64,000 nucleotides of DNA from Raja brachyura (lineage: Eukaryota): the NCBI GenBank assembly GCA_963514005.1, contig OY740790.1, positions 49,042,001 to 49,106,000 on the forward strand, in the 5' to 3' direction. Made by a program: the position numbers. Numbering within the stretch: the first letter of the stretch is position 1; the number at the start of each line of letters is the position of its first letter. Below, one piece after another: positions 60,801 through 63,800 of the stretch.

Positions 60801-63800
60801 GTGTATATATATATATATATATCCGCTCCTGGACGCTCAGGTTGCCATACCAAGCCACGATGCAACTGGTCGGCATGCTCTCTACAGTGCACCTGTAGAA
60901 GTTCAAGAGAGTCCTTCTTGACATACTGACTATCAGTAATCTTCTCTGGAAGTAGATGTGCTTTCTTTATAATTGCATAGTGTTCTGGAACCAGGAGAGA
61001 TCTTCGGAAATATGCACGCCCAGGAATTTGAAGTTCTTGACCCTTTCCACCATCTTGTTGATATAACCGGGACTGTGGGTCCCCATCCTACCCCTTCCGG
61101 GCCACAATCAGTTCCTTGGTTTTGCTGGTGTTGAGAGCCAGGTTATTGTGCTGGCAGCATTTGGTCAATCGGTTGCTCTCACTTCTATACTCTGACTCGT
61201 CCCCATCAGTGATACGTCCCACAACAGTGGTGTCGTCGGCGAACTTGATGATGGAGTTTGTACTATGTCCGGCTACGCTGAGTACAGCAGGGGGCTGAGC
61301 ACGCAGCCTTGAGGTGTTCCTGCGCTGATTGTTATCGAGGATGATACATTTCCACCAATACGGACAGACTGTGGTCTGTGAATGAGGAAGTTGAGGATCC
61401 AATTACAGAGGGATGCGCAGAGACCCAGATCTGAGAGCTTGGTAACCAGCTTGGAGGGGATGATGGTATTAAATGCCGAGCTGGAGTCAATGAATAACAG
61501 CCTGACATGAGTTTTTATTGTCCAAGTGTTCCAGAGCAGAATGGAGAGCCAGTAAGATCGCATCCACCGTTGATCTGTTGTGGCGGTAAGCGAACTGCAT
61601 TGGGTCCAGGTTTTTGTTGAGGTATGACTTGATTTGCGCCATGATCAGTCTCTCAAAGCACTTCATCACCACAGAAGTTAGTGCCACTGGTGGATAGTCA
61701 TTGAGGATCGTCACCTTGCTCTTCTTGGGCACCGGTATTATTGATGCCCTTTTAAAGCAGGTGGGGACCTCAGACCTCAAAAGTGAGAGGTTGAAAATGG
61801 CCGTTAAAAACTCCAGCCAGTTGGTCCGCACAGGTTTTTGAAACAAGCCCAGGTATACCATCAGGTCTAGGAGCTTTCCGAAGGTTCACCCCTCTGAAGG
61901 ATCTTCTGACGTCACGGCGAATGGGGGCTTGGGAAGGCACATCCGTGTTCTCCCTATCAAAGCGCATTGAGTTTGGTAAAACGCTTTGTGTAAAACGCAT
62001 TGAGCTCGTAAGGGAGTGATGCTTCACTGACATTTGAGCTGCCTCCTGATTTTACCTTGTAGGAGATGATTGCATTCAAGCCCCGCCACAGTTGCTGAAC
62101 ATCCGTCTCATCCTCCAGCTTGGAGCAGAAGTCCTTTTTGGCCTTTTTAATGGCCTTACCAAGGTCGTATCTGGACTTCTTGTAGACCGCTATTCTCCAG
62201 ACCTGTATGCCTGGGATCTGGTCTTCAGAAGAATACAGATCTCATGGTTCATCCAAGGCTTCTGGTTAGGAAACACTCTGAAGTTTTTTGTTGGGTTGCA
62301 GTCCTCCACAAATTTCTTTATGAAGTCTGTAGCGACTGTGGCATATTCATTCATTCAGGTCAATCTAGAAACCAATTGCAGATTTAATCCCAAGACCAAT
62401 ATCCAGAGGTTTAGAGATGAGTTTATTCGGTATTATGTGCCCCCGCATTGTATCTTCAAAGTCATCTTTGTCCTCTTTCTCCTTGCCAACTTAACTGTTG
62501 CCTGAGGTCTTCATCATGCAAAGAGGCAGTGTTTCAGTGGTGAAGGCTAGTTCAAAGGTTTAGTTTAGAGATACTGCATGAAAACAGAACCTTCGGCCTA
62601 CCGACTCCATGTTGACACACAAGTTATACACACTTCCTACACAATAGGGGCAATTTTACAGAGGCCAATGAACCTACAAACTTGCATGTCTTTGGGATGT
62701 GGGAGGAAACCGAAGCATGCAGAGGAAACACGCAGTCACAGGGAGAACATGCCAACCTCATACAGACACCACCTGAGGTCAGGTTCGAACCCACGTCGTT
62801 GTGAGGCAGCAGCTCTACCAGTTGCACCACTGTGCAGCCCTAGGTTTTACCTAGCCAGGATATATATTTTATGGGTATATTCATTTCTTTAAAAAATTGT
62901 GTTCTGATCTGAAACTTTTGACATTTTTATTAAGGACAGCAAACTCTATAGTATATACAATTTAGCTAAATTGTTCTATCGGTATCCAATTCCCTGTTAC
63001 ACATTTGTTATCTATTATTAAGGGAGTCTTAATAATTTGCAGAACATATTTTCCTTTTCTGTTCATCATGGTGATTTTACTTAAGGTCTTTGCTCTACTT
63101 TGAACAAACATTCTGTGACTCCACTTGAGGTAGACAGTTACTTTGAAGAGATAACTGGTAATTTACTTTTGGTTTGAAATTGGCATTGAAAATTCATGAA
63201 TAAAAATTAAGAATTTACTGAGCGTGACTTGTCTGTAAACTGCTGTTTTTGCGTGGAGTAGATGGCAATGAGTATATAACGTAATGATAAAAATGCAGCT
63301 AATGTTATAGTGGGAACTATTAGTGGCAAATTTTCCAAAAAAGTGTAATATTTTACATTTTGACAAATGCAGAGAGTCCACCTTAATTTTAAACTGTTAT
63401 ATGTGATGTGCTTTTACCTCATTATACACCATTGTTTTTATTTTAAACATAGGATCTGGGTTTGTCACGTGCAGCAGTAAAGAGAACCATGATAGTGATG
63501 CAGATCTTGATGTGGATGGAGACGACACCTTGGAGTATGGGAAACCACAGCATCCTTTTGATAAATAAATGCATAACTATTAAACAGACAATTGCTTTTT
63601 GCAGATTTTTAACGCCAAGTGGAGTTTCCTATTTAAAAAAATATTGACATTTCCCCTCCAATTGCTTAATAAATTACAGGAAAATAAAGAGTAATAGGAC
63701 ATATCCTCACTGGATGCTAAGATCGGTCATGTTTACGTTGCTTTATCCAGTGCCTTCCAGACTAAGCATTTTGCTGGTTAGCTGGCTCCTGGCTGATGAG

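What the first reader, a model, noticed from the sequence alone, without database searches (positions are those of the whole stretch)
63540..63570. Minor-spliceosome (U12-type) intron in RNF220 that starts with GC instead of GT/AT
Seen: RNF220 homology runs to ...YGKP-CA and is followed by GCATCCTTTT. Read-through gives Q-H-P-F-D-K-stop, and no GT occurs before that stop. Established: U12 donors are RTATCCTTT, nearly invariant at +2, and RNF220 continues GKPQYTEAD. Inference: this is a phase-2 U12 intron with a rare +2 T>C donor. It lies upstream of the RING-coding exons, so inefficient minor splicing could gate the output of all catalytically active RNF220 isoforms.
Basis: partly seen in the sequence, partly recalled or inferred. 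Interest (0 to 1): 0.75.

Follow-up and report, generated by a model that had tools for sequence, protein, structure and literature searches.

The report
Skate RNF220 minor intron starting GC
An exon of the ubiquitin-ligase gene RNF220 in a skate-like genome is followed by an intron with the signature of the rare minor spliceosome but with GC where GT or AT normally stands, a rare variant already known from other genes.

Summary
RNF220 exon 63453-63549 (+) ends CCACA and is followed by GCATCCTTTT (G 63550, C 63551). Read-through gives Q-H-P-F-D-K-stop, and no GT lies before that stop.

The boundary is real. Of 100 named RNF220 proteins, 91 continue ...YGK(P/A)Q|YTEA at this point.

The site matches the U12 donor consensus RTATCCTTT at 8 of 9 positions and the U2 consensus at 3 of 9. 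The other four exon-ending donors and the alternative donor inside exon Ec are GT and match U2 at 5-8 of 9.

Eight named records from eight species (coelacanth, sturgeon, six mammals) read into the orthologous intron as Q-Y-P, which means RTATCC. So this is an old, conserved U12-type intron, and the window carries T>C at +2. A second, non-identical unnamed contig also reads Q-H-P-F, which argues against an assembly error.

U12-type GC-AG introns with this same GCATCCT motif were described in 2006 and make up 0 to about 5% of U12 introns in the vertebrates tabulated. This is a new member of a known rare kind.

The 3' end and branch site lie outside the window and are untested. The idea that the intron gates RNF220 output is untested speculation.

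The parts
7033..7128 (+). RNF220 exon Ea (..SVLLSAPIKREGESPTASPLSADDTHHSDRYQ), flanked ag..gt, donor CAG|GTGGGA
   Evidence: tblastn with named skate, shark and chimaera RNF220a proteins; splice sites
12508..12550 (+). RNF220 exon Eb (TFLRVRSNRQARLN), ag..gt, donor ATG|GTAAGG
44669..44793 (+). RNF220 exon Ec (ARIGKNKRKKASDDGQ + VCPLCNETLSGSVEEMSRHVEACLDQ), ag..gt. An internal alternative donor CAG|GTATGT follows 44715
   Evidence: Pfam PF15926 profile positions 96-132
51405..51543 (+). RNF220 exon Ed (RDGSYTNDDES...LLEGGFRG), ag..gt, donor GTG|GTATGC
   Evidence: Pfam PF15926 profile positions 136-181
63453..63549 (+). RNF220 exon Ee, 97 nt (SGFVTCSSKENHDSDADLDVDGDDTLEYGKP + CA of the Q codon). 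Acceptor ttttattttaaacatag|GATCTG. The exon ends in phase 2
   Evidence: Pfam PF15926 profile positions 181-213
63550..63559 (+). 5' splice site GCATCCTTTT of the U12-type intron, with C at +2 (63551). It matches RTATCCTTT at 8 of 9 and the U2 consensus MAG|GTRAGT at 3 of 9
   Evidence: motif definition from Sheth et al. 2006
63566..63568 (+). In-frame stop TAA reached if the intron is retained. The product would end ...YGKPQHPFDK and lack the RING
63564..63569 (+). AATAAA hexamer 15 nt into the intron. It is a possible intronic poly(A) signal, or chance in A+T-rich sequence
   Evidence: two more AATAAA at 63668 and 63683
63535..63540 (+). The only nearby GT, GGA|GTATGG (exon would end at 63534). 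It is a weak in-phase cryptic U2-type donor whose use would remove 15 nt (5 codons)
   Evidence: 4 of 9 to the U2 consensus; none of the 100 named proteins examined lacks these residues

Best explanation
The window holds five coding exons of RNF220 (RNF220a) from a skate-like cartilaginous fish. The last of them (63453-63549) is followed by a phase-2 intron of the minor, U12-dependent class. Its 5' splice site is GCATCCTTTT, that is, the consensus RTATCCTTT with C for T at +2. The intron is orthologous to a U12-type intron that begins RTATCC in coelacanth, sturgeon and mammals, so the C is a derived substitution in this lineage. If its 3' end is AG, it belongs to the already described rare subclass of U12-type GC-AG introns. 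Inferred mechanism: U11 snRNA pairs with +4 onward (TCCTTT, intact here) and does not pair with +1 to +3, which the U11-48K protein reads. The +2 change therefore leaves the RNA helix untouched and is tolerated, and the exon is joined to the next one to give ...YGKPQ|YTEAD... . Shown here: the sequence, the exon boundary, the poor U2 fit and the orthologous RTATCC. Inferred: the use of the minor spliceosome, the 3' end, and any effect on efficiency.
For: (1) Donor sequence and coordinates. It matches RTATCCTTT at 8 of 9, with +3 to +10 ATCCTTTT exact, and matches the U2 consensus at only 3 of 9. The other four exon-ending donors and the alternative donor inside Ec are GT and score 5-8 of 9 for U2 and 2-6 of 9 for U12. 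(2) The boundary is fixed by protein homology. The Pfam RNF220 match stops there, and 91 of 100 named orthologues continue QYTEA. All exon residues in the window equal those of Leucoraja erinacea RNF220a isoform X1, whose model joins KPQ to YTEAD. (3) Eight of 100 named records read into the orthologous intron, and all eight give Q-Y-P, i.e. (G/A)TATCC. They are Latimeria QYPFK, Acipenser QYPLN, and Ovis, Balaenoptera, Lynx, Mirounga, Smutsia and Microcebus QYPW. (4) Five of the mammalian records also keep the last 26 nt of the intron as S(I/V)VLDHHA(R). V-L-D fixes 5 of the 8 letters of the branch-site word TCCTTGAC, and all five fit. The branch A would sit 12 nt from the 3' splice site. The reported optimum is 11-13 nt (section 4 of PMC3584512). 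(5) A second, non-identical contig (unnamed protein P0001) differs from the window in the upstream intron (58 of 64 aligned residues, plus indels) but also reads Q-H-P-F. (6) Sheth et al. 2006 define U12-type GC-AG introns by GCATCC at +1 to +6, report a 'perfectly conserved GCATCCT', and note that the exon base before it usually does not fit U2. All three points hold here. (7) U11 does not pair with the first three intron bases; U11-48K recognises them (passages of PMC3584512).
Against: The branch site, the branch-to-3'ss distance and the terminal dinucleotide lie outside the window, so two of the defining features are untested for this species. No RNA evidence could be examined. The skate protein models are predictions, and I could not see what supports them. 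Protein read-through cannot tell G from A at +1 in other species, nor fix third codon positions, so the mammalian branch-site reading is only compatible. From recall only (Dietrich, Fuller and Padgett 2005; not held): most mutants at the second position of a U12 donor were defective in test introns, which would argue for weak splicing rather than none. Among 11 unnamed read-through ORFs seen, all 11 have Y after Q. Three continue Y-R and one Y-H, which would break the ATCC core in whatever lineages they come from. Their species are unknown, so the intron may not be U12-like everywhere.
Confidence: 0.8

Rival explanations
1. Base-call or assembly error, or a rare allele: the true donor is the ordinary GTATCCTTTT and the intron is a plain GT-AG U12-type intron.
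For: All 8 named read-through records of other species have T at +2. GC-AG is 0 to about 5% of U12-type introns in the vertebrates tabulated, under 1% in most, so a priori an error is not negligible.
Against: The unnamed protein P0001 comes from a contig that is not identical to the window (58 of 64 residues in the upstream intron frame, plus indels) and also has H, i.e. CAY, at this codon. The window has no N and nothing odd around the site.
Confidence: 0.07
2. A major-spliceosome (U2-type) GC-AG intron: the donor is read by U1 in spite of its ATCCTT.
For: GC-AG introns are far more often U2-type: 1602 U2-type against 4 U12-type in human in Sheth et al. Tables 1 and 2.
Against: U2-type GC donors compensate with a near-perfect consensus elsewhere. 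Here only 3 of 9 positions fit MAG|GTRAGT, with mismatches at -2, -1, +4, +5 and +6. The orthologous donors are RTATCC.
Confidence: 0.04
3. The functional donor is the GT at 63535 (GGA|GTATGG) and the GCATCC is not used. This would give an in-frame product lacking five residues.
For: It is the only GT nearby and is in the same phase, 15 nt upstream. Cryptic U2-type sites are known to be activated when U12 recognition fails (passages of PMC4615840).
Against: It fits the U2 consensus at 4 of 9. None of the 100 named proteins lacks these residues; all keep LEYGK. At most it is a minor alternative.
Confidence: 0.03
4. In part of the transcripts the intron is not removed. Read-through ends the protein at ...YGKPQHPFDK, and the AATAAA at 63564 might end the RNA, giving a RING-less product or a decay target. 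This would add to the best explanation rather than replace it.
For: The stop is 17 nt into the intron and the AATAAA 15 nt in. A predicted sheep isoform (X15, 459 aa) ends inside the orthologous intron. U12 introns are reported to be retained about twofold more than neighbouring introns.
Against: AATAAA occurs twice more in the next 120 nt of this A+T-rich stretch, so it may be chance. No RNA data were examined.
Confidence: 0.2

Closest known systems
U12-type GC-AG introns (Sheth et al. 2006, SpliceRack; e.g. the LZTR1 intron, GC-AG in both human and mouse)
   Same: GCATCCT at +1 to +7. The exon bases before the donor do not fit U2. The intron sits in an otherwise U2-type gene.
   Different: The gene (RNF220) and the lineage (skate-like) differ. 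Here the orthologous intron in eight other named species has T at +2, so the C is lineage-specific, whereas LZTR1 is listed as conserved GC-AG between human and mouse. The 3' AG and branch site were not seen here.
Canonical GT-AG U12-type introns (consensus RTATCCTTT, branch site TCCTTRAC 11-13 nt from the 3' splice site)
   Same: +1 and +3 to +10 are identical to the consensus. The orthologous position and phase are shared with RTATCC introns of coelacanth, sturgeon and mammals.
   Different: C instead of T at +2, one of the three bases read by U11-48K rather than by U11 RNA.
U2-type GC-AG introns
   Same: GC at the 5' end.
   Different: U2-type GC donors have a strengthened consensus (AG|GCAAGT-like). 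This site fits at only 3 of 9.

Membership tests
U12-type (minor spliceosome) intron | Highly conserved 5' splice site RTATCCTTT | tested here: met
   GCATCCTTT matches 8 of 9; the only mismatch is +2, and +3 to +10 are exact. A match this good occurs at 21 of 63991 + strand positions.
U12-type (minor spliceosome) intron | Branch-site word TCCTTRAC about 10-15 nt upstream of the 3' splice site | not testable with these tools
   The next exon (YTEADIIP...) is not within 63550-64000. No eukaryotic genome collection was on hand. Indirect only: in five named mammalian records the retained 3' end reads V-L-D, compatible with TCCTTGAC 12 nt from the acceptor.
U12-type (minor spliceosome) intron | No distinct polypyrimidine tract at the 3' end | not testable with these tools
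   The 3' end lies outside the window.
U12-type (minor spliceosome) intron | Orthologous introns at the same position and phase are U12-like (conservation, as used by intronIC and U12DB) | tested here: met
   8 of 8 named read-through records from 8 species read Q-Y-P, i.e. RTATCC. Third codon positions and G versus A at +1 are not resolved.
U12-type (minor spliceosome) intron | Removal depends on U11, U12, U4atac and U6atac | not testable with these tools
   Needs an experiment.
U12-type GC-AG subclass (Sheth et al. 2006) | GCATCC at +1 to +6 (GCATCCT in all reported cases) | tested here: met
   GCATCCT at 63550-63556; definition read.
U12-type GC-AG subclass (Sheth et al. 2006) | AG at the 3' end | not testable with these tools
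   The 3' end lies outside the window.
U2-type GC-AG intron | Near-perfect match to the U1-complementary consensus at the remaining donor positions | tested here: not met
   ACA|GCATCC fits MAG|GTRAGT at 3 of 9.
RNF220 (Pfam PF15926) | Match to the RNF220 family profile above the gathering score | tested here: met
   Three exon-bearing frames score 29.7, 56.8 and 38.4 bits against a cut-off of 26 and cover consecutive profile positions 96-132, 136-181 and 181-213. Each exon was tested separately.

The most novel reading that the evidence does not exclude
The T>C change at +2 is a lineage-specific weakening of an ancient, conserved U12 donor. It makes this one intron an unusually slow step, so skate RNF220 output, and the balance between full-length RING-bearing protein and a truncated ...KPQHPFDK product or decay, becomes especially sensitive to minor-spliceosome activity. 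It would then be a natural experiment on what the +2 base, read by U11-48K, contributes in vivo.
Probability: 0.12. Interest if true: 0.45.

Novelty: new member of a known kind. Interest (0 to 1): 0.27.

Why it matters
It adds one well-placed natural example to a very small class. Sheth et al. counted four U12-type GC-AG introns in human, four in mouse and one in fly. Here the ancestral state (T at +2) can be read from relatives. That makes it a usable case for asking how the minor spliceosome tolerates a change in one of the three donor bases that a protein, not an RNA, recognises. For genome annotation the lesson is that a GC donor with no U2 consensus should be scored against the U12 model and not moved to the nearest GT. 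It does not open a new question about RNF220 itself. The suggested gating of ligase output is no more than the general rate-limiting hypothesis for U12 introns applied to this gene.

Tried and rejected
1. The 32-aa exon alone was too short for the homologue search. I sent the same contiguous stretch of the window with its intronic flanks (46 aa).

2. I tried to learn how widely C at +2 occurs among cartilaginous fishes from genomic read-through ORFs. In one search the only unnamed hit close to the window was P0001.
- I fetched 11 other unnamed ORFs, guessing from identity and coverage that they were not mammalian. That guess was wrong: they look amniote-like.
- Their species are unknown and some could be human, so I set them aside and did not align them, search with them or save them.
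- What the output shows is told in the Against line.
- A second search for short ORFs gave 20 unnamed hits, all at 87% identity or less, and none was fetched.
- How far the GC donor extends within cartilaginous fishes therefore stays unchecked.

3. Literature on RNF220 as a minor-intron gene.
- There were 0 papers for 'RNF220' with 'minor intron' and 0 for 'C1orf164' with 'U12'.
- 'RNF220' with 'U12' gave 3 papers. I read the one RNF220 passage of PMC4506483, which concerns a circular RNA. The other two I saw only in the listing.
- 'RNF220' with 'minor splic' gave 1 paper, the same PMC4506483.
- These searches cover main text only.

Lists of minor-intron genes, such as those of Moyer et al. 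2020, could well name RNF220, and I could not see them.

5. Dietrich et al. 2005 on U12 terminal dinucleotides is not held. What I say of it is recalled.

6. A search of PMC11347168 failed on a term that was too short and was not repeated.

Each exon was examined on its own.

9. The Polypterus partial record (P0113...GKAHFVFRYTEAD) looks like a mis-set junction and gave no usable information on the donor.

Full report
**What is in the sequence.** In the frame that starts at 63455 the translation is SGFVTCSSKENHDSDADLDVDGDDTLEYGKPQ, then HPFDK and a stop. From 63520 to 63575 the only GT is at 63535, so none lies between the boundary and the stop at 63566-63568.

**The gene.** I examined each exon on its own and did not build, translate or search a joined model.
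- Three exon-bearing frames match Pfam RNF220 (PF15926) above its cut-off. They cover consecutive parts of the profile: 96-132, 136-181 and 181-213 of 249.
- tblastn of four named RNF220a proteins against the window finds five exons. The proteins were Leucoraja erinacea X1, Amblyraja radiata X2, Callorhinchus milii X2 and Heptranchias perlo X1.
- All exon residues equal those of the Leucoraja erinacea protein, while the others differ at one or more residues. The window is therefore from a skate or a close relative, and I do not take it for human.

| Exon | Coordinates | Flanks | U2 consensus match (of 9) | U12 consensus match (of 9) |
|---|---|---|---|---|
| Ea | 7033-7128 | ag..gt | 7 | 2 |
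| Eb | 12508-12550 | ag..gt | 7 | 5 |
| Ec, alternative donor after 44715 | – | gt | 8 | 4 |
| Ec | 44669-44793 | ag..gt | 7 | 4 |
| Ed | 51405-51543 | ag..gt | 5 | 6 |
| Ee | 63453-63549 | ag..gc | 3 | 8 |

The phases are consistent along the chain, and Ee ends after the second base of the Q codon, which is phase 2.

**Is the boundary real?** The homologue search with the 46-aa stretch around the exon gave 846 hits, of which the best 120 were listed. One hundred of those carry names.
- 91 of the 100 continue YGK(P/A)Q-YTEA.
- 8 read on into the intron.
- 1, a partial Polypterus record, is odd.

All the cartilaginous-fish models I fetched join KPQ to YTEADIIP. The next exon is not within 63550-64000, so the intron is longer than 451 nt and its 3' end is outside the window.

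**Which kind of intron?**
- The donor ACA|GCATCCTTT fits the U2 consensus MAG|GTRAGT at 3 of 9 positions and the U12 consensus RTATCCTTT at 8 of 9. Its only mismatch to the U12 consensus is at +2, and +3 to +10 (ATCCTTTT) are exact.
- The other four exon-ending donors and the alternative donor inside Ec fit U2 at 5-8 of 9 and U12 at 2-6 of 9.
- The motif alone is not rare. RYATCCTTT occurs three times on both strands against 4.1 expected.
- A match of at least 8 of 9 occurs at only 21 of 63991 + strand positions. Its falling exactly where the protein homology ends is therefore unlikely by chance, about 3e-4.

**Relatives.** The eight named read-through records come from eight species and all read Q-Y-P after the exon.
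- Latimeria chalumnae reads QYPFK and Acipenser sinensis reads QYPLN.
- Ovis aries X15, Balaenoptera physalus, Lynx canadensis X3, Mirounga leonina and Smutsia gigantea read QYPWG.
- Microcebus murinus X3 reads QYPWA.
- Y-P after CA means (G/A)TATCC, so the orthologous intron starts with the U12 core in lobe-finned fish, ray-finned fish and mammals.

Five of the mammalian records carry an in-frame insert of 18 residues before YTEAD: YPWG..GQG followed by S(I/V)VLDHHAR. The insert is made of both ends of the intron.
- The last 26 nt of the intron are thus conserved at the protein-read level across four orders.
- V-L-D fixes five of the eight letters of TCCTTGAC, and all five fit.
- The branch A would lie 12 nt from the acceptor. 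The reported optimum is 11-13 nt (section 4 of PMC3584512).
- This is compatible with a U12 branch site but does not prove one, because third codon positions are unknown.

**Error or real?** One unnamed ORF, P0001, is from a contig close to the window but not identical to it. It shares 58 of 64 residues in the frame through the upstream intron, with indels further up, and it also reads Q-H-P-F. H needs C at the place of +2. The C is therefore seen twice in non-identical sequence, which makes an assembly slip unlikely. It does not exclude one, since I cannot say how the two sequences are related.

**What is known.**
- Sheth et al. 2006 (passages and tables read) searched GC-AG introns for GCATCC at +1 to +6. 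Most had a U12 branch site at the right distance, and the authors named them U12-type GC-AG.
- They count four in human, four in mouse and one in fly, all with 'a perfectly conserved GCATCCT'. Most have exon bases before the donor that do not fit U2. LZTR1 is listed as GC-AG in both human and mouse.
- Moyer et al. 2020, Table 2 (section 17 read), gives GC-AG as 0.61% of U12-type introns in human and 0.47% in mouse. The range is 0 to about 5% in the animals tabulated.
- Larue et al. 2023 count GC-AG among the canonical terminal pairs (passages).
- The review by Turunen et al. (passages and section 4) states three points. U11 snRNA does not pair with the first three intron bases, which U11-48K recognises. 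Non-canonical termini can support U12 splicing, often with reduced efficiency. The branch-to-3'ss optimum is 11-13 nt.
- From recall only (Dietrich, Fuller and Padgett 2005; not held): most second-position mutants of a test U12 donor were defective.

**How it most likely works.**
- Shown: an RNF220 exon ends at 63549, the following bases are a U12 donor with C at +2, and the same intron in distant vertebrates has RTATCC.
- Inferred: the U11/U12 di-snRNP binds the intact TCCTTT through U11 RNA, U11-48K tolerates C at +2, and the minor spliceosome joins CA to G-TAT-ACN... of the next exon.
- If the intron stays in, the frame ends after five more residues, long before the RING, which lies near the C terminus in the fetched proteins.
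- U12 introns are reported to be retained about twofold more than their neighbours, and the unspliced RNAs to be degraded in the nucleus (passages of PMC4615840).
- Whether the C makes this intron slower than its GT orthologues is open.

**Results that do not fit neatly.** Of the 11 unnamed ORFs fetched, all have Y (T at +2). Seven continue with P, three with R and one with H. The last four would break the ATCC core in their unknown lineages. I fetched these on a wrong guess that they were not mammalian. They look amniote-like, their origin is unknown and some might be human, so I made no further use of them. The 20 short unnamed hits were not fetched for the same reason. How far the GC donor extends within cartilaginous fishes is therefore unchecked.

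**Print search.** No paper in the held main texts links RNF220 to minor splicing. The only paper whose RNF220 passage I read concerns a circular RNA.

**Verdict.** This is a real feature, correctly seen and correctly classed in its core. It belongs to a rare kind that has been in print since 2006. It is a new member of that kind as far as I could search. The regulatory reading is unsupported.

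Noticed in passing
window 44715-44721 (inside exon Ec, 44669-44793): A strong internal U2-type donor, CAG|GTATGT (8 of 9 to the consensus), lies after ...KKASDDGQ. Its use skips the 26 residues VCPLCNETLSGSVEEMSRHVEACLDQ, a Cys/His-rich stretch with weak zinc-finger-like Pfam hits. Named isoforms of several cartilaginous fishes lack exactly this stretch (e.g. P0008, P0009, P0010, P0023, P0033).
   Followed up: partly
window about 12259-12351, + strand (in ORF 12190-12507): MPSNIDRLSHFNPAMDPAGVEDPEHTNGKEE, followed by GTGGGG, looks like an alternative first coding exon 156 nt upstream of exon Eb. 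It matches the N terminus of the 325-aa short isoforms (e.g. Cetorhinus maximus X6, P0005). Such isoforms would still have to pass the U12-type intron.
   Followed up: partly
proteins P0063, P0074, P0077, P0095, P0099 (named mammalian records; no locus): Five mammalian RNF220 records carry an in-frame 18-residue insert (YPWG..GQG + S(I/V)VLDHHAR) made of both ends of the orthologous intron. It looks as if a nested U2-type intron were spliced out of the U12-type intron. Two of the records are predicted RefSeq-style isoforms (Lynx X3, Microcebus X3). Whether this is a real alternative product or a modelling habit is open.
   Followed up: no
window 63564-63569, also 63668 and 63683: AATAAA hexamers lie just inside the intron, the first 15 nt after the donor and overlapping the read-through stop. 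They are possible intronic polyadenylation signals or chance in A+T-rich DNA.
   Followed up: no
window 16985-18992 (+), 35895-38689 (+), 61088-62241 (-): Retrotransposon remains lie in the introns. Reverse-transcriptase (RVT_1) ORFs are at 17931-18992 (E 1.4e-20) and 37544-38242 (E 8.2e-29). Similar peptide fragments on the minus strand at 61-62 kb were not tested.
   Followed up: partly
window 27565-28378 (+) and 47706-48200 (-): Two Tc1/mariner-type transposase remains (HTH_Tnp_Tc3_2 with DDE_3; Sleeping-Beauty-type HTH) lie in the introns.
   Followed up: partly
window 20001-24000 and 36001-40000: GC skew is 0.24-0.26 in these two 4-kb bins against 0.1 or less elsewhere. The second bin overlaps the retrotransposon ORFs; the first was not looked at.
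   Followed up: no
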